Program-made: the position numbers and the translations under genes | From: Candidatus Rokuibacteriota bacterium | GTDB taxonomy: Bacteria; Methylomirabilota; Methylomirabilia; Rokubacteriales; CSP1-6 | Length of the DNA: 64,000 nucleotides | NCBI GenBank assembly: GCA_003220475.1 | Contig: QHSO01000001.1 | Span: 4,346 to 68,345, forward strand | Direction of reading: 5' to 3' | The notes under the pieces: model-generated | What the model was told of the DNA's origin: nothing | The model's database searches: none | Seen by the model: the letters and a program-made list of their open reading frames with translations, nothing else | In this document: piece by piece, positions 1,524 through 34,468 of the stretch | Position numbering within the stretch: position 1 is the stretch's first letter | Layout: each line of letters begins with the position of its first letter

Positions 1524-2057
1524 CTATTCCTGCCCGTTCAGCAGCAGCTTCACGATTGCCGGCACGATCTCGCGTGCGCGTCGGTCGAGCTCCGCATCGC
1601 TGAGATTGGCGATCGGATGCGGCATCGCCAGGAACTTGTAGGAGGTGAGCCCCCACTGCTCGGCCATCGCCCTGCCCGTCTTCTCGAACACGTCGGTCAC
1701 GATCGAGGCCGAGGGGATGCCGTGATGCTCCAGCAGAATTCCGTCGAGCACACTGCCCGACGAGCAGGACCCTCAGTCGCCGATCCCGGCGACCATGACG
1801 TCTGCGGATGTCTTGATCGCCGCGATGATCTCCTCGTGCGCCGGCACGCTGGCGTTGTGCTTGCGGTACATCGTCCATTCCGCGATGCCGTGCTCGGCCT
1901 TGAGGATCTGACCGATCCGCTCGAGCAGCTTGTCGGAGTTGAACTTCGTGTTCTCGATCAGCGCCACCCGCTTGCCCGCGAGCGAGCCCGGCCGCGGCGA
2001 GTACTCGATCGGCCGCGGCGACGCGGGCGTGGTGGGATCCAGGATCTCGATGCTCAT
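1524..2057 (-). CDS. UGSC-motif selenoprotein (Sec encoded by in-frame TGA at 1773-1775), function unknown
   Basis: Track ORFs 1773..2120 and 1524..1751 are in the same frame, separated only by TGA 1773-1775 plus 7 sense codons (GSCSSGS). Joined product reads ...VMVAGIGD-U-GSCSSGSVLDGILLEHHGIPS... and aligns along its length with the N-terminal domain of the 6653..8227 product. Start ATG 2055-2057 (M22 of track ORF) overlaps the partner gene stop 2054-2056. AGGAG sits 8 nt upstream. Confidence 0.75.
1743..1761 (-). promoter_or_regulatory. SECIS-like hairpin 12 nt downstream of UGA (GUCGGGCA-GUG-UGCUCGAC)
   Basis: mRNA reads UGA GGGUCCUGCUC then an 8-bp stem-loop starting GUCG and ending CGAC, with G-U in the apical loop. 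Same spacing and stem ends as the element at 7925..7943. Confidence 0.5.
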
Positions 2058-3034
2058 CGCTTGATCTCCTTCGTAATGGCTGCGGAGGACTTCGCGCTCG
2101 ACCAGCCCGGGATGAAGCACGAGAACGCGCCGGCGCGGCCGCCGGCGGCCACGACGAGGATGTCGTCGGGCGCGGCCACGAGCGGGCGCATCCTGCTCTC
2201 GTCACCCGCCTCCGGCGCGCCCGCCATGCGCTGCGTCCGCTTGAGGTGCGCGTGCGCATTCTGCGTGTGCTCCCAGACGAACTGCCGGATCCGCTTCTTG
2301 TCCCAACCGTCGGCGGCGATCGTCTTCATGTGCTCGCCCGCGAGCACGAGACAGTAGTGCGGCTGCCCCATCACGTTGCCGGAGATGCGCATGCTGTCCG
2401 CCAGCGTGATGAGGACACCCTCGGCCGTGCTCGAGAGCTGGTTGTAGAACTGGTGCGGGCCTTCCGCCGCCATCACGGTGACCGTCGACTGCTCGGGCCG
2501 AAAGCCGCGCTCGACGTGCAGCGGCGTCCACGGGCTCTCCGCCTCGTTCTCGGCGATCACGTACGAGAGCTTGCCGGGATGGCCGACGGTGCCGCGGTCG
2601 AGCAGGCCGGGCATCGAGCCGCACACGTTGCGCATGACCAGGCGCACCGCGCGCCCGATCGTGAGATTCGCGCGCCAGCCGGGACCGAAGAGGTTGTCGC
2701 CCGCGTTGATGTCGAGCTCACGCGCGATCGGTCCGTTGACGATCATCAGCACGGCCGCGCCGGCGGTCGACGTGCCCGGGCCGTGATAACTCCAGCCCTC
2801 GTCGCCGATCCCCTCGACTGCGGCCACCACGACCGGCATGTACTCCGGCTTGCAGCCCGCCATCACCGCGTTGATCGCGACTTTCTCGGCCGTGACCGTC
2901 ACGAACCGATCGCGGATATAGGCGAGCTTGGCATCCGGCGCGAGCCGGACCGCGTCCAGCATGGCGCGCACCGCCGACTCGGTGGGCGGGACGACCGGCA
3001 GTCCGTCGCTCCAGCCTCCCTGGTGCCTGCCCAA
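2054..3034 (-). CDS. conserved hypothetical protein, partner domain of the UGSC selenoprotein (DUF-like)
   Basis: 326 aa. About 55-60% identical to the C-terminal 325 aa of the 6653..8227 product (GWSDGLPVVPPTE, NGPIAxxLxxxxGxNxxGxGxRANxxIGRAxRLV, GHPGKxxYxxAENEAxSPWxPLHVERGF). Stop TGA overlaps the UGSC gene ATG (ATGA). Confidence 0.75.
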   Translation of the reverse strand: MGRHQGGWSDGLPVVPPTESAVRAMLDAVRLAPDAKLAYIRDRFVTVTAEKVAINAVMAGCKPEYMPVVVAAVEGIGDEGWSYHGPGTSTAGAAVLMIVNGPIARELDINAGDNLFGPGWRANLTIGRAVRLVMRNVCGSMPGLLDRGTVGHPGKLSYVIAENEAESPWTPLHVERGFRPEQSTVTVMAAEGPHQFYNQLSSTAEGVLITLADSMRISGNVMGQPHYCLVLAGEHMKTIAADGWDKKRIRQFVWEHTQNAHAHLKRTQRMAGAPEAGDESRMRPLVAAPDDILVVAAGGRAGAFSCFIPGWSSAKSSAAITKEIKR

Positions 3035-6652: not shown

Positions 6653-8227
6653 TCAGGCCTCGATCCGCTCCGTCACCGAGCGCGTGGCGCCGAACGTCGG
6701 CACGATGGCCGAGTGCTTGCCCGGACCGCCCGCGACGATCACCATCACGTCCTCGGGCTTCGACGCGAACGGCAGCAGCGTGTCGGGGCCCGCGTTCTCG
6801 AACCGCTCGGGATGCGTGAGCTTGAAGCGCGCGATGTTGTCCGCCGAGAACTTCGCCATCGGCACGCGCGCGGCGTCCCAGAAGCGGCTCTGGAAGTCCT
6901 GCTTCGACCAGCCCGACGAGGCGAGCGTCTGCGCGTGCTCGGGGCCGAGGATCACGAGCGGATCGCCAGCCAGATAGATGTTGTTGCTGCCGGTGGTCGC
7001 CGCCGTGCCGGCGAGCGCGGCCATCAGCGTCTCGCCCGTCGTCGAGCCGTGGTCGTTGACGTTGTGGGGAGGCTCGGAGCCGCACACGGTCACCGTGCTG
7101 TCCTCGCGCGCGAAGCCGCGCTCCACGTGCAGCGGCTCCCACGGCGACTGCGCCTCGTTCTCGGCCAGGCAGTACGTGAACTTCCCCGGATGCCCGAGCG
7201 TCGCGCGGTCCTCTCGGCCCGGGCGCGCGCCGCCGACGTTCTGCAGCACCAGTCGCAGCGCGCGGCCGATGACCGCGTTGGCGCGATGGCCGTTGCCGAG
7301 CGCGTTCGGTCCGCCCGCCACGCCGAGCCGCGCCGCGATGGGACCGTTGACGATGACGAGCGGCGAGCACGGATGCGTCGTGCACTGGATCGCGTTGAGG
7401 TTGAACTGCGGCGTGGCCACGGCGCGCACGGCGGCGATGATCACCGGCAGGTGCTCGGGGCCCGCGCCCGCCAGCGCGGCGTTGACGGCGATCGCGTGCA
7501 GCGTCGCGCGACCGTCGAGCGGCATGAGCGTCGAGGCCAGTTCCTCGCCTGCGCGACGGCCGAGGATCTTCGCCACCCGCGCTTCGGTCGGCGGCAGCAC
7601 GGGCAGCCCGTCCGACCACTCCTGCTCCATCGCCCACAGCTGGAACGCGTCGAGATCCTCCGGCGCCTCCACGAGGGTCGGACGGGCCGCCGCCGTGGTC
7701 GCGGGCGGGGTGGGATCCGACGTCAGGCCGCGCAGAACCTCATCGAGGATCGCGTCGGCTTTCGCGCGCGCCGTGTCGGTGGGGATGCCGCCGAGCGGAT
7801 GCGGCACGAGCGCCACCGGCATGTGCGGCAGTCCATGTTTCGCGGACGTCGCCCTCGCGAGCGAGAGAAACGCGTCGGTGCCGAGCACGACGGACGGGAC
7901 GCCCCGCCCTTCCAGCTGCGCCGCGTCGTGGATACTCCACGACGTGCAGGACCCTCAGTCGGCGCTCCCGGTCAGCACGACGTCAGCACCCTTCGCGATG
8001 TCGTCGAGGATCTCGGCCGGCCGCGCCGCACTGGGCTTGCTCCAGCCGCGCACGCCCGCCGCGCCCGTGCGCGCGGCGAGCAGCTCGGCGACCCGATGCA
8101 GGAGCGCGCCGGCGTTCGGCTTGGAATTGTCGAGGACGCCGATGGTGAGACCGGCCAGGCTCGGCTTGCGCGGCGCGAGCCGCCCGATCTTCGCCTGGCC
8201 GCCTGAGAACGGGCTCCAGAGTTTCAT
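6653..8227 (-). CDS. fused UGSC-motif selenoprotein + partner domain (Sec encoded by in-frame TGA at 7955-7957)
   Basis: Track ORF 6653..7888 and the last 90 codons of ORF 7955..9592 share a frame, interrupted only by TGA 7955-7957. Product reads MKLWSPF...VVLTGSAD-U-GSCTSWS...EWSDGLPVLPPTE... About 524 aa. ATG 8225-8227 overlaps the MFS gene stop 8224-8226 (ATGA). Confidence 0.75.
7925..7943 (-). promoter_or_regulatory. SECIS-like hairpin 12 nt downstream of UGA (GUCGUGG-AGUAU-CCACGAC)
   Basis: mRNA reads UGA GGGUCCUGCAC followed by a perfect 7-bp stem with a 5-nt loop containing GU. The core GCAGGACCCTCAGTCG is identical to that at 1764-1779. Confidence 0.5.
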
Positions 8228-33023: not shown

Positions 33024-33485
33024 TCAGTGCGGGCCGAGCGAGAGCCAGATGGCGCGGTCGAGCGACAGGATGCCGGCACCGCCGATGAGGATCGCGAGCG
33101 CCATCGCGATGAGCGCGAGGTTGAACTCGAAGCCCGGCCCCTTGCCCGGGACGCCGAGATTCAGGAAGAAGCCGTGCTTGCCGTGGACCTTGGCAATGGC
33201 CACCAGCATGACCACGATGATGCCGACGGCCGCCGGGCGCGCGAGCAATCCGACGATCATGCCGAGGCCGCCGAGGAACTCGATGAACGCCACCAGCACG
33301 GCCGCCGCCGGCGGCACGCCCATGCCGCGGAACATTTTGACGGTGCCGCCGAGCCCGTGGCCGCCGAACCAGCCCAGCACCTTTTGTGATCCGTGTGCGA
33401 AGAAGATCACGCCGAGCCCGAGGCGCACGACGAGCAGCGACCAGGAGGGAAAGGTGCCGAGCACGGCGTCCAGTGCGCCAGCCAT
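33024..33485 (-). CDS. DoxX family membrane protein
   Basis: 153 aa. RLGLGVIFFAHGSQKVLGWFGGHGLGG... GGAGG lies upstream of the ATG. Confidence 0.8.
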   Translation of the reverse strand: MAGALDAVLGTFPSWSLLVVRLGLGVIFFAHGSQKVLGWFGGHGLGGTVKMFRGMGVPPAAAVLVAFIEFLGGLGMIVGLLARPAAVGIIVVMLVAIAKVHGKHGFFLNLGVPGKGPGFEFNLALIAMALAILIGGAGILSLDRAIWLSLGPH

Positions 33486-33503
33486 GTGGTATCCTCCCCC
33501 GTC

Positions 33504-34142
33504 GTGATCGGTCCGTTCGCGAGCTCTCCGACGCCGCGGCGAGTCTACACCATCACGCTCACGCTCACGATCGCCCTCACGCTCCTCGGCCTCGGCTGCC
33601 ACGCGCCGGCGCCGGGGGCGGCCGACCGTCTCGTCGTCGAGACGCGGATGTCGAAGGGGCCGGCGACGGCGCCGGTGACGATCGTCGAGTTCTCGGATTA
33701 CCAGTGACCGTTCTGCCGACGCGTCCAGCGGTCGCTGGAGCAGATCCTCAGGGAGTACGATGGTCGGGTGCGTCTGGTCTACAAAGACTTCCCCCTGCCG
33801 TCCCACTCCCTGGCCATGCCCGCGCACGAGGCGGCGCGCTGCGCGGGCGATCAGGGCCGGTACTGGGCGTATCACGACGTGCTGTTCGAGCGTCAGCCGC
33901 GCTTCGAGCGTCAGGACCTCGTCGATTACGCGATCAACCTCAATCTCGACCGCGAGCGCTTCGAGCGCTGCCTGGATGGTCACCAGTACCGCGCCGCCGT
34001 CGAGGCGGATTTCGCGGAAGGCCGCGAGCTGGGTGTGCGCAGCACGCCGACGTTCCTCATCAACGGCAAGCCGCTCGTGGGCGCACAGCCCATCGAGAAT
34101 TTCCGCGCCGCCATCGACGAGGCGCTCCGGGTGCGCCGCTGA
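33504..34142 (+). CDS. DsbA-like thiol:disulfide oxidoreductase selenoprotein (U-P-F-C active site; Sec at TGA 33705-33707)
   Basis: Track ORFs 33393..33707 and 33768..34142 share a frame, separated by TGA plus 20 sense codons. Product reads ...VTIVEFSDYQ-U-PFCRRVQRSLEQILREYDGRVRLVYKDFPLPSHSLAMPAHEAARCAG..., i.e. the DsbA signature DYQCPFC with Sec at the first Cys. N-terminal signal or lipoprotein-like peptide. The start is uncertain (GTG 33486 or 33504) because the divergent DoxX gene occupies everything below 33485. Confidence 0.7.
33724..33739 (+). promoter_or_regulatory. candidate SECIS hairpin 16 nt downstream of UGA (UCCAGC-GGUC-GCUGGA)
   Basis: 6-bp stem with a GGUC loop, read directly from the sequence. 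Confidence 0.35.
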
Positions 34143-34468
34143 TGGCCTTCGTGCGTGTCGCCCGCGGCGACGACATTCCCGCCGGGCGCGGCCGGCTCGT
34201 CGAGGCCGGCGCGCATACGCTCGCGGTGTTCAATGGCGGCGACGGTCGCTTCTATGCGGTGAGCGCGTTGTGTCCGCACGAAGACGGGCCGCTCGCCGAC
34301 GGCTGGATCGAAGGCGACGCGGTGGTGTGTCCGTGGCATGGCTTCGACTTCGATCTGGCGACGGGACAGTGTCGCGTGGCCGACGAGCTGTCGATCGGCG
34401 TCTTCCCCACGCGCGTGGTGAACGGCATCGTCGAGGTAGACGTTTCTGACCAACCCCAAAGGTGCTAG
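34142..34468 (+). CDS. Rieske [2Fe-2S] domain protein (NirD-like small subunit type)
   Basis: 108 aa. CPHEDGPL...CPWHGFDFD. TGATG overlap with the selenoprotein gene. Confidence 0.8.
   Translation: MAFVRVARGDDIPAGRGRLVEAGAHTLAVFNGGDGRFYAVSALCPHEDGPLADGWIEGDAVVCPWHGFDFDLATGQCRVADELSIGVFPTRVVNGIVEVDVSDQPQRC

What the first reader, a model, noticed from the sequence alone, without database searches (positions are those of the whole stretch)
33504..34468. Third selenoprotein: DsbA-like oxidoreductase with U-P-F-C active site, translationally coupled to a Rieske protein
Track ORFs 33393..33707 and 33768..34142 share a frame, separated by TGA 33705-33707 plus 20 sense codons. The read-through gives ...IVEFSDYQ-U-PFCRR..., which is the canonical DsbA N-terminal motif with Sec in place of the first Cys. 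That is the classic selenoprotein position. A candidate SECIS (UCCAGC-GGUC-GCUGGA) lies 16 nt after the UGA. The product has a signal or lipoprotein-like N-terminus. Its stop overlaps the ATG of a 108-aa Rieske [2Fe-2S] protein. A periplasmic Sec-DsbA delivering electrons with an iron-sulfur partner is an unusual pairing.
Basis: partly seen in the sequence, partly recalled or inferred. Interest (0 to 1): 0.7.

Follow-up and report, generated by a model that had tools for sequence, protein, structure and literature searches.

The report
Selenocysteine DsbA-like lipoprotein gene, Rieske-coupled
This is a real but ordinary-in-kind selenoprotein gene: a DsbA-type thiol-disulfide oxidoreductase from a soil Rokubacteria genome. 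An in-frame UGA codes for selenocysteine in place of its first active-site cysteine. Public gene calls cut the gene in two at that codon.

Summary
TGA 33705-33707 interrupts one reading frame (33504-34142). Read through, that frame is a full-length DsbA/Thioredoxin_4 domain with the active site U-P-F-C.

- **Cys/Sec alignment:** Cysteine homologues, including syntenic orthologues, have Cys exactly at the TGA column.
- **Conservation of the TGA:** 57 loci from Rokubacteria/Methylomirabilota (46 distinct sequences once five later-fetched loci, three of them distinct, are added; down to about 71% nucleotide identity) keep the TGA. Both flanks show the codon-position signature of purifying selection.
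- **SECIS hairpin:** UCCAGC-GGUC-GCUGGA (33724-33739) meets the published bacterial SECIS model. Its five codons are invariant at synonymous sites while neighbouring codons vary (permutation P about 0.0009).
- **Sec use in this genome:** Two UGSC-family selenoprotein genes lie in the same window.
- **N-terminus:** It carries a signal peptide with a lipobox cysteine.
- **Rieske gene:** The TGATG overlap with a 108-aa Rieske ferredoxin gene is conserved in Sec and Cys orthologues, but only within this lineage.

The Rieske protein has no export signal and resembles cytoplasmic dioxygenase ferredoxins. Direct electron exchange with the exported DsbA is therefore unsupported.

UxxC DsbA-like and DsbG-like selenoproteins have been known since 2005. 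This is a new, unannotated member of a known kind, of modest interest.

The parts
33504..34142 (+). Sec-containing DsbA-like (Thioredoxin_4) gene, 212 codons including Sec68, with stop TGA at 34140-34142. The start GTG 33504 is conserved. An alternative conserved GTG at 33486 cannot be excluded.
   Evidence: Pfam, full-length; alignment with Cys homologues; start-codon conservation; codon-position diversity.
33504..33599 (+). Signal peptide with a positively charged n-region (P-R-R-V-Y-T), a hydrophobic core and the lipobox L-G-L-G-C. The Cys32 codon is at 33597-33599.
   Evidence: Read directly from the sequence. The hydrophobic stretch plus G-C is conserved in most Sec orthologues. Divergent orthologues have a signal or anchor without the Cys. 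No signal-peptide predictor was available.
33705..33707 (+). In-frame UGA read as selenocysteine (residue 68), active site U68-P-F-C71.
   Evidence: Aligned to Cys in all full-length homologues. TGA is kept in 57 loci and in further divergent loci L173-L177.
33724..33739 (+). Bacterial SECIS hairpin: 6-bp stem UCCAGC/GCUGGA with apical loop GGUC (33730-33733). A 2-bp extension with a bulged G is possible in this sequence only.
   Evidence: -8.7 and -12.4 kcal/mol; z-scores -3.5 and -2.4; invariant synonymous sites, P = 0.00086; stem kept with loop GGGC in L176; absent in Cys orthologues L169 and L171. Model criteria are from PMC13188914.
33701..33709 (+). 5' arm (CCAGUGACC, containing the UGA) of an alternative 9-bp helix. 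It pairs with 33730-33738, the loop plus most of the 3' arm (33734-33738) of the SECIS hairpin. This helix is predicted for the free mRNA only.
   Evidence: RNAalifold consensus; -22.5 kcal/mol for the free RNA; the local hairpin becomes the MFE once the ribosome footprint is held single-stranded. Its functional relevance is not established.
34047..34049 (+). Pro182 of the T-P-T motif, the putative cis-proline loop of the thioredoxin fold. It lies after the TGA.
   Evidence: P182 is invariant in alignment A1. It aligns to the G-T-P-A-F stretch of solved DsbA 4pwp.
34140..34144 (+). TGATG stop/start overlap between the DsbA-like gene and the Rieske gene.
   Evidence: The overlap is conserved in essentially all Sec loci and in Cys orthologues.
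34142..34468 (+). 108-aa Rieske [2Fe-2S] ferredoxin-type protein with ligands C44-x-H46 and C63-x-x-H66. It has no signal peptide and lacks the extra disulfide cysteines of bc1-type Rieske proteins.
   Evidence: Pfam Rieske, 65.9 bits; closest to BphF, TodB and CarAc ferredoxins.
33024..33486 (-). Divergently transcribed DoxX-family membrane protein (153 aa) with a weak MauE hit. It is a neighbour and only a possible redox partner.
   Evidence: DoxX, 74.5 bits. It is syntenic in many relatives and absent in others.

Best explanation
The locus encodes an exported, probably lipid-anchored, DsbA-family thiol-disulfide oxidoreductase of a Rokubacteria/Methylomirabilota bacterium. The N-terminal active-site cysteine is replaced by selenocysteine, giving U-P-F-C. 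Inferred mechanism: when the ribosome reaches UGA 33705-33707, the hairpin at 33724-33739 lies just outside the mRNA channel. The hairpin recruits SelB-GTP-Sec-tRNA(Sec), and Sec is inserted. The roughly 212-aa precursor is exported, and its signal peptide is cut before Cys32, which becomes lipidated. The U68/C71 pair then cycles between selenol/thiol and selenenylsulfide while acting on extracytoplasmic thiol or disulfide substrates. Whether it acts as an oxidase or a reductase/isomerase is unknown. The Rieske ferredoxin gene downstream is co-expressed through a TGATG stop-start overlap. Ribosomes that terminate at the UGA would therefore not deliver coupled initiation at the Rieske start. 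The Rieske protein itself most likely stays in the cytoplasm. Shown here: the reading frame, the Cys/Sec alignment, conservation of the TGA, the RNA-level constraint on the hairpin, and the gene overlap. Inferred: Sec insertion itself, export and lipidation, redox chemistry, and coupling.
For: - Full-length Thioredoxin_4/DSBA match across the TGA.
- Cys at the TGA column in 50-66% identical homologues, including syntenic orthologues P0003 and P0034.
- TGA conserved in 57 loci, and in further divergent loci.
- Codon-position diversity shows the same frame is under purifying selection on both sides of the TGA.
- The hairpin meets the published bSECIS criteria: 6-bp stem, 4-nt loop starting GG, 22 nt from the UGA to the loop, and MFE of -8.7 kcal/mol or below.
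- Its five codons are invariant in 42 distinct sequences. Only 5 of 76 fourfold-degenerate codons are invariant, and 4 of those lie in the hairpin. Permutation P = 0.00086.
- The stem is kept in the divergent locus L176, where the loop is GGGC.
- The hairpin is absent from Cys orthologues L169 and L171.
- The same window holds two UGSC-family selenoprotein genes above the NCBIfam cutoff, each with a SECIS-like hairpin.
- The phylum is reported as selenoprotein-rich (PMC13188914; PMC13582414).
- 61 of the 120 best database clusters are gene calls truncated just after the TGA, and no full-length Sec form is listed.
Against: - No covariation supports the hairpin, because it is invariant.
- RNAalifold on the free RNA prefers an alternative helix that uses the same 3' arm and sequesters the UGA. 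Part of the synonymous conservation could serve that structure.
- No selA, selB, selD or tRNA-Sec gene was identified in the window. The tRNA scan was negative, and the protein genes were not searched for.
- There is no Rfam match.
- No Shine-Dalgarno sequence was noticed by eye before GTG 33504, so the exact start is uncertain.
- Export and lipidation rest on sequence inspection only.
- The closest Cys orthologue (L168) keeps a weak related hairpin.
Confidence: 0.9

Rival explanations
1. The Sec-DsbA and the Rieske protein form a functional redox pair. The iron-sulfur protein would pass electrons to or from the selenenylsulfide centre. This would happen either in the periplasm, after co-export, or across the membrane through the neighbouring DoxX protein.
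For: - The TGATG overlap is conserved in every Sec locus examined and in Cys orthologues at 57-64% identity.
- The pair persists where DoxX is lost.
- DoxX gives a weak MauE hit. From my own knowledge, MauE/MauD is a membrane plus thioredoxin-like pair.
Against: - The Rieske protein has no signal peptide and is closest to cytoplasmic dioxygenase ferredoxins.
- The RR of the DsbA signal is replaced by RG, WR or PR in several orthologues, which argues against Tat hitchhiking.
- The whole 10-gene neighbourhood is syntenic across the lineage, so adjacency may only reflect relatedness.
- More distant Cys homologues never have a Rieske gene downstream: 0 of 82, apart from one spurious motif hit.
- P0113 has a cupin gene in that position instead.
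- L178 has DoxX next to Rieske with no DsbA gene.
Confidence: 0.1
2. The TGA is a genuine stop. The gene would then be split or decaying, or would yield a 67-residue lipopeptide plus a separately initiated 124-aa C-terminal fragment, as current gene calls imply.
For: Automated annotation in all sources calls only the C-terminal 121-142 aa. No Sec machinery was seen in the window.
Against: - The 20 codons between the TGA and the annotated start show the same third-position bias as the rest of the gene.
- The fragment would lack the CxxC motif and the first strand of the fold.
- The TGA persists through about 29% nucleotide divergence with no second lesion.
- A SECIS-like hairpin is conserved at RNA level.
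Confidence: 0.03
3. The UGA is read through without selenocysteine. Examples would be near-cognate Trp or Cys insertion, or a reassigned code, with the hairpin acting only as a read-through stimulator.
For: There is no direct proof of Sec insertion. Cys insertion at UGA would restore a normal CxxC motif.
Against: - TGA is used as a true stop for this gene itself and at the conserved TGATG junction.
- The hairpin fits the SelB-type bSECIS model, with G in the first two loop positions at the allowed distance.
- Two curated-family selenoprotein genes in the same window carry similar elements.
Confidence: 0.03

Closest known systems
DsbA-like selenoprotein, form 1 (PF01323, UxxC motif; Zhang, Fomenko and Gladyshev 2005, PMC1088965; review PMC13188914)
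   Same: A DSBA/thioredoxin-fold domain, with Sec replacing the first Cys of CxxC, and a bSECIS immediately downstream of the UGA.
   Different: The originally described family maps to COG2761 (FrnE-like). This protein scores best with Thioredoxin_4, the BdbD/ScsC/actinobacterial DsbA type. It comes from Rokubacteria and is always followed by an overlapping Rieske gene.
DsbG-like selenoprotein / NCBIfam NF041057 'Rcas_1661 family thioredoxin-like (seleno)lipoprotein'
   Same: A lipoprotein-type N-terminus, a thioredoxin-like DsbA/DsbG-type domain and a UxxC motif. It is the best NCBIfam hit (E = 1e-37, profile positions 83-246 of 247).
   Different: The score of 129.9 bits is below the curated cutoff of 190. 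The first 82 profile positions are unmatched. It is therefore a relative, not an equivalog member.
Extracytoplasmic Cys-type DsbA, BdbD and ScsC proteins with solved structures (4pwp/4pwo DsbA, 3eu3 BdbD, 4gxz ScsC)
   Same: The same domain. The active site aligns C-P-F-C to U-P-F-C, and the T-P cis-proline loop is shared.
   Different: All of these use Cys. Sequence similarity is modest (E = 1e-19 to 1e-9).
Escherichia coli fdhF SECIS (from my own knowledge, plus the consensus model in PMC13188914)
   Same: A stem-loop downstream of the UGA with the apical loop GGUC. The UGA can pair in a lower or alternative helix.
   Different: The loop G-U lies at +27/+28 from the UGA here, against +23/+24 in fdhF. 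There is no conserved bulged U. The UGA-containing helix competes with the SECIS hairpin rather than stacking under it.
Soluble Rieske-type ferredoxins of ring-hydroxylating dioxygenases (BphF 1fqt, TodB 3dqy/4emj, CarAc 1vck) and NirD-like small subunits
   Same: About 105 aa, with CxH...CxxH ligands and no signal peptide.
   Different: No oxygenase or reductase partner gene is adjacent. All NCBIfam hits are below their curated cutoffs. The orthologue group appears confined to Rokubacteria/Methylomirabilota.

Membership tests
Bacterial selenoprotein (UGA-Sec gene) | An in-frame UGA aligned with Cys in homologues | tested here: met
   12 full-length homologues have TIVEFSDYQ-C-PxC at the TGA column; syntenic Cys orthologues.
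Bacterial selenoprotein (UGA-Sec gene) | The UGA is conserved among orthologues, with coding constraint on both sides | tested here: met
Bacterial selenoprotein (UGA-Sec gene) | A bSECIS fitting the consensus model: 3-9 nt loop, 4-16 bp stem, G in the first two loop positions, 16-37 nt from the UGA to the loop, MFE of -7.5 kcal/mol or below | tested here: met
   Model from PMC13188914. The hairpin has 6 bp, loop GGUC, 22 nt spacing and -8.7 kcal/mol. Synonymous-site invariance, P = 0.00086.
Bacterial selenoprotein (UGA-Sec gene) | Base-pair covariation supporting the SECIS stem | tested here: inconclusive
   The stem is invariant, so there are no compensatory changes. Only loop and closing-pair variants were seen.
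Bacterial selenoprotein (UGA-Sec gene) | Sec machinery (selA, selB, selC, selD) in the same genome | not testable with these tools
   There is no tRNA in the window, and the rest of the genome is not available. Indirect support: two UGSC selenoprotein genes in the window, and the phylum is reported as Sec-rich.
Bacterial selenoprotein (UGA-Sec gene) | Selenium actually incorporated into the protein | not testable with these tools
   This needs 75Se labelling or mass spectrometry.
DsbA family / Pfam Thioredoxin_4 and DSBA | Domain match above the curated cutoff over the full domain length | tested here: met
   PF13462: 128.6 bits (cutoff 23.2), profile 3-165 of 165. PF01323: 88.1 bits (cutoff 25.6)..
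DsbA family / Pfam Thioredoxin_4 and DSBA | A CxxC-type active site at the start of helix 1, plus a cis-Pro loop | tested here: met
   U-P-F-C aligns to C-P-F-C of solved DsbA 4pwp, and T-P-T aligns to its T-P-A. P182 is invariant. The cis conformation itself was not tested.
DsbA family / Pfam Thioredoxin_4 and DSBA | Extracytoplasmic location (signal peptide, lipobox or anchor) | tested here: inconclusive
   A hydrophobic N-terminus with L-G-[IL]-G-C is conserved. Divergent orthologues have a signal or anchor. No predictor was run, and the start codon is uncertain.
NCBIfam NF041057 Rcas_1661 family thioredoxin-like (seleno)lipoprotein (DsbG-like selenoprotein) | Whole-protein score at or above the curated cutoff of 190 bits | tested here: not met
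   129.9 bits, and only profile positions 83-246 are matched.
Rieske [2Fe-2S] protein (downstream gene) | Pfam Rieske above the cutoff, with CxH...CxxH ligands | tested here: met
   65.9 bits (cutoff 20.3). C44-P-H46 and C63-P-W-H66.
Tat-exported complex (hitchhiker export of the Rieske protein) | An invariant twin-arginine motif in the signal peptide of one partner | tested here: not met
   RR is replaced by RG (L125-L127), WR (L104) or PR (L133). The Rieske protein has no signal.

The most novel reading that the evidence does not exclude
The conserved Sec-DsbA/Rieske overlap would reflect a real two-component redox module. A low-potential Rieske ferredoxin would feed or drain electrons of an extracytoplasmic selenenylsulfide oxidoreductase, through DoxX or another membrane carrier, or by co-export. 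Rieske synthesis would be made selenium-dependent through translational coupling to a UGA-Sec gene. The UGA-sequestering alternative helix would add a further regulatory layer.
Probability: 0.07. Interest if true: 0.6.

Novelty: new member of a known kind. Interest (0 to 1): 0.3.

Why it matters
**Annotation.** At least 61 protein clusters in public databases are C-terminal fragments of this gene, and no full-length Sec form appears among the best hits. A whole Rokubacteria/Methylomirabilota clade of DsbA-like selenoproteins is therefore mis-called. It falls below the cutoff of the one curated NCBIfam selenoprotein model that resembles it.

**Biology.** The locus adds an exported, lipid-anchored UxxC oxidoreductase to the selenoproteome of a soil phylum already suspected to be unusually Sec-rich. 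It also offers a clean Sec/Cys orthologue pair in identical synteny, which would suit a study of Sec-to-Cys exchange and SECIS decay.

**Limits.** It does not open a new kind of system. The Rieske pairing is a conserved curiosity without a demonstrated functional link.

Tried and rejected
- **Rfam.** Neither gathering thresholds on the whole window nor a permissive search around the TGA gave a SECIS or other relevant match. This is expected, since bacterial SECIS elements are diverse.
- **tRNA scan.** No tRNA-Sec lies in the window.
- **Stem extension.** The 2-bp extension with a bulged G below the hairpin is not conserved, and its partner positions vary without compensation. I did not include it in the element.
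- **Whole-region folding.** Z-scores were unremarkable at -0.8. Only the isolated hairpin stands out.
- **Tat or hitchhiker export of the Rieske protein.** Rejected, because the RR is not invariant.
- **Rosetta-stone fusion.** P0128 contains both domains, but it is an in-frame deletion chimera and not a real fusion.
- **DoxX as an obligatory partner.** Rejected as a conserved feature, because DoxX is absent in L169, L171, L173 and L176.
- **Promoter and terminator scan.** Nothing useful was found in this 70% GC sequence.
- **Haft and Tolstoy 2025.** The paper on selenoprotein neighbourhoods could not be fetched.
- **First motif regex.** My first pattern was too strict and missed all TGA loci. 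I corrected it.
Full report
**1. The observation**

- ORFs 33393..33707 and 33768..34142 share a frame. They are separated by TGA 33705-33707 and 20 sense codons.
- Translation through the TGA gives ...GPATAPVTIVEFSDYQ*PFCRRVQRSLEQ....
- With Cys in place of the stop, the 212-residue product starting at GTG 33504 matches Pfam Thioredoxin_4 over the whole profile (positions 3-165 of 165; 128.6 bits). It also matches DSBA at 88.1 bits. The domain therefore runs straight across the TGA.
- The gene's real stop, TGA 34140-34142, overlaps the ATG 34142-34144 of a 108-aa ORF. That ORF is a Rieske [2Fe-2S] protein by Pfam (65.9 bits) and carries the CxH...CxxH ligands.

**2. Is the TGA a selenocysteine codon?**

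*Homologues.* A search of the 5.8-billion-protein collection gave two classes among the best 120 clusters.
- 59 clusters contain the CxxC motif, with at most 66% identity to the query.
- 61 clusters are 121-142 aa long, are 71-98% identical, and start just after the active site. These are gene calls truncated at the TGA.

In an alignment, every full-length homologue has TIVEFSDYQ-C-PxC, with Cys at the TGA column.

*Conservation of the TGA.* I fetched DNA for the truncated relatives and scanned genome and metagenome collections. This gave 57 loci with TGA at exactly this column. They are 32 distinct sequences over the 90-nt SECIS region and 43 distinct over the full-length gene alignment. Of the 43, I analysed 42 and set L011 aside because its gene length differs. 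Later fetches added five more divergent loci (L173-L177), three of them distinct sequences. Pairwise nucleotide identity in the full-length set goes down to 71%.

*Taxonomy.* The named genomes are Candidatus Rokuibacteriota and Methylomirabilota MAGs. Near-identical copies (99%) come from soil metagenomes.

*Coding constraint.* Nucleotide diversity by codon position (1 / 2 / 3) is as follows.

| Region | Position 1 | Position 2 | Position 3 |
|---|---|---|---|
| 20 codons before the TGA | 0.09 | 0.07 | 0.29 |
| 20 codons between the TGA and the annotated downstream start | 0.08 | 0.04 | 0.28 |
| Rest of the gene | 0.10 | 0.08 | 0.29 |

One frame is therefore under purifying selection across the TGA.

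*Orthologues with Cys.* The Cys proteins P0003 (64% identical) and P0034 (57%) sit in the same gene order as the window. That order is Oxidored_molyb, NYN, (holin-like, DoxX), DsbA, Rieske, HTH, LAB_N, aminotransferase, 2-hydroxyacid dehydrogenase. They are therefore true Cys orthologues of a Sec gene.

**3. The SECIS**

The hairpin UCCAGC-GGUC-GCUGGA (33724-33739) starts 16 nt after the UGA. Alone it folds at -8.7 kcal/mol (z = -3.5). With two extra pairs it folds at -12.4 kcal/mol.

It meets each criterion of the published bacterial SECIS consensus (PMC13188914):
- a 3-9 nt loop;
- a 4-16 bp stem;
- a G in the first two loop positions, followed by G or U;
- 16-37 nt from the UGA to the loop (here 22);
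- an MFE of -7.5 kcal/mol or below.

From my own knowledge, GGUC is also the apical loop of the E. coli fdhF SECIS. There the G-U sits at +23/+24. Here it is at +27/+28.

*RNA-level constraint.* Across 42 distinct full-length sequences, the five codons that form the hairpin (V-Q-R-S-L, codons +6 to +10) are completely invariant. The Arg codons just before them use three or four synonymous codons.
- Of 76 conserved fourfold-or-more degenerate codons in the gene, only 5 are invariant, and 4 of these lie in the hairpin.
- A run of five invariant degenerate codons arises in 0.086% of permutations.

*Divergent and Cys forms.*
- In the divergent locus L176, an S-to-A change turns the loop into GGGC, while the CCAGC/GCUGG stem is kept.
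- In L173, the E-to-D codon change adds a seventh pair.
- Cys orthologues L169 and L171 have no hairpin at this place. The closest Cys orthologue, L168, keeps a weaker one with loop AGGC. That could be a relic.

*Weakness.* There is no compensatory covariation, because the stem never varies.

**4. An alternative RNA structure**

RNAalifold on 19 diverse sequences does not return the local hairpin. It returns a 9-bp helix pairing YCAGUGACC (33701-33709, which contains the UGA) with GGUCGCUGG (33730-33738), plus three inner pairs.
- In the window sequence this fold is worth -22.5 kcal/mol. The local hairpin is worth -9.5.
- If everything up to 14 nt past the UGA is held single-stranded, as under a decoding ribosome, the local hairpin becomes the minimum-energy fold at -12.4 kcal/mol.
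- Two sites discriminate between the structures. The fourfold-degenerate C of GUC (33725) is invariant and pairs only in the local hairpin. L176 breaks the alternative helix with an A.G mismatch but keeps the hairpin.

I conclude that the local hairpin is the SECIS. The UGA-sequestering helix is a possible resting state of the mRNA, and it is unproven.

**5. Does this organism use Sec?**

No tRNA lies in the window, and the Sec machinery could not be searched in the rest of the genome. However, a scan for TGA codons flanked by high-GC3 coding sequence found two further genes:

| Gene | Coordinates | Length | Sec TGA | NF041046 score (cutoff 125) |
|---|---|---|---|---|
| A | 8227..6653 (-) | 524 aa | 7955-7957 | 126.1 bits |
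| B | 2057..1524 (-) | 177 aa | 1773-1775 | 145 bits |

- Both match the curated UGSC (seleno)protein family NF041046 above its cutoff. Gene A also matches Pfam UGSC at 163.7 bits. Both have the motif D-U-G-S-C.
- Each has a 9-10 bp hairpin starting 12-13 nt after the UGA, with loop GUA or GUG, and with G-U at +23/+24.
- A 2026 review reports a Methylomirabilota MAG with 63 predicted selenoprotein genes (PMC13188914). Sec-type hydrogenases are also reported from this phylum (PMC13582414).

**6. The protein**

*N-terminus.* GTG 33504 is conserved as a start candidate. So is a GTG at 33486, which overlaps the divergent DoxX start. The 18-nt gap between the genes is the DoxX ribosome-binding site, read directly from the sequence.

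The N-terminus reads M-IGPFASSPTPRRVYTITLTLTIALTLLGLG-C. It has a charged n-region, a hydrophobic core and a lipobox-like L-G-L-G-C, with Cys at residue 32. The [LF]-G-[ILM]-G-C is conserved in most Sec orthologues. Divergent orthologues have a plain signal or anchor instead. This supports an extracytoplasmic, probably lipid-anchored protein. I had no signal-peptide predictor, so this rests on inspection.

*Solved relatives.* These are all extracytoplasmic thiol-disulfide oxidoreductases: DsbA 4pwp/4pwo (E = 1e-19, with C-P-F-C aligned to U-P-F-C), BdbD 3eu3 and ScsC 4gxz. The T-P-T cis-proline motif and two invariant cysteines (C113, C156) lie after the TGA.

**7. The Rieske gene**

*Evidence for a conserved pair.*
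- The TGATG junction is present in virtually all Sec loci. One has an adjacent TTG start, and one has a frameshifted Rieske gene.
- It is also present in the Cys orthologues.
- It persists in more divergent loci where DoxX is absent.

The pair is therefore conserved, and translational coupling is plausible.

*Evidence against a functional link.*
- Rieske homologues found by search are all at least 62% identical, about 102 aa long, and from this lineage.
- Cys DsbA homologues at 55% identity or less never have a Rieske gene downstream: 0 of 82, apart from one spurious motif hit.
- P0113 has a cupin gene in that position instead.
- One short contig has DoxX next to Rieske with no DsbA gene.
- The protein has no signal peptide and lacks the disulfide cysteines of high-potential Rieske proteins.
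- Its closest solved relatives are soluble dioxygenase ferredoxins (BphF, TodB, CarAc). Its NCBIfam hits (NirD, HcaC) are below their cutoffs.
- A Tat hitchhiker route is unlikely, because the RR in the DsbA signal becomes RG, WR or PR in several orthologues.

The two proteins are most likely in different compartments. One consequence of the arrangement is an inference only: ribosomes that stop at the UGA cannot reinitiate at the Rieske start. Rieske output may therefore follow Sec-insertion efficiency.

**8. Comparison with what is known**

- UxxC DsbA-like (COG2761/PF01323) and DsbG-like (COG1651) selenoproteins were described in 2005-2006 (PMC1088965, PMC1794560). They are listed in the 2026 catalogue.
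- The DsbG-like family has the NCBIfam model NF041057, 'Rcas_1661 family thioredoxin-like (seleno)lipoprotein'. This is the best NCBIfam hit here, but at 129.9 bits against a cutoff of 190, and it covers only the thioredoxin domain.

The protein therefore works like these families and shares their architecture: lipoprotein signal, DsbA-type domain and UxxC. It is not a member of that equivalog. By the Pfam-plus-motif definition it is a DsbA-like form 1 selenoprotein.

No full-length Sec form of this clade appears among the best database hits, so the clade is effectively unannotated.

**9. Verdict**

This is a genuine selenoprotein gene with a well-supported SECIS. It is a new member of a known kind. 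The Rieske overlap is real and conserved, but its meaning is open. Interest is modest at 0.3.

Noticed in passing
window 8227..6653 (-), Sec TGA 7955-7957: A 524-aa gene with an in-frame TGA in the motif GSAD-U-GSC. Its N-terminal 170 residues match the UGSC (seleno)protein family (NF041046, 126.1 bits against a cutoff of 125; Pfam UGSC, 163.7 bits). They are fused to a roughly 350-aa C-terminal region with no Pfam hit. A 9-bp hairpin with loop GUA starts 13 nt after the UGA.
   Followed up: partly
window 2057..1524 (-), Sec TGA 1773-1775: A second UGSC-family selenoprotein gene of 177 aa, with the motif GIGD-U-GSC (NF041046, 145 bits). A 10-bp hairpin with loop GUG places G-U at +23/+24 from the UGA.
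   Followed up: partly
window 33701-33709 paired with 33730-33738: In the free mRNA, the UGA and its flanks (CCAGUGACC) can pair with the loop and 3' arm of the SECIS hairpin. This fold is worth -22.5 kcal/mol and is the RNAalifold consensus over 19 sequences. It is mutually exclusive with the SECIS hairpin, so it could be a resting state or a regulatory state. The CAG codon before the UGA is invariant in 42 sequences.
   Followed up: partly
L171 about 1955-2479 (-) (GCA_009772905.1, WNGB01004078.1): A related contig, which has a Cys-type DsbA followed by a cupin gene instead of Rieske, carries an AhpC-TSA/redoxin gene split by an in-frame TGA (EFWTFG-*-YNCKNV, a UxxC motif). It is probably a Prx-like thiol:disulfide oxidoreductase selenoprotein.
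   Followed up: no
L178 1-1066: A short metagenome contig in which the DoxX gene and the Rieske gene are directly divergent and the DsbA-like gene is missing. The Rieske gene can therefore persist without the DsbA gene, unless this is an assembly artefact.
   Followed up: partly
L168 4001-4636: The closest Cys orthologue (64% identical) still has a 5-bp hairpin (UCAGC-AGGC-GCUGG) at the SECIS position. This may be a fossil of a recent Sec-to-Cys conversion, or a precursor of the SECIS.
   Followed up: no
window 33486-33504: Only 18 nt separate the divergent DoxX ATG from the DsbA GTG, and that spacer is the DoxX Shine-Dalgarno sequence (GGGGGAGGA on the minus strand). The DsbA start has no Shine-Dalgarno sequence that I noticed by eye, and each gene's promoter must lie inside the other gene.
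   Followed up: no
P0128 (contig of 3120 nt): A 172-aa gene call joins the first 73 residues of the post-TGA DsbA fragment in frame to the Rieske protein. It is an internal deletion or an assembly chimera, not a natural domain fusion.
   Followed up: partly
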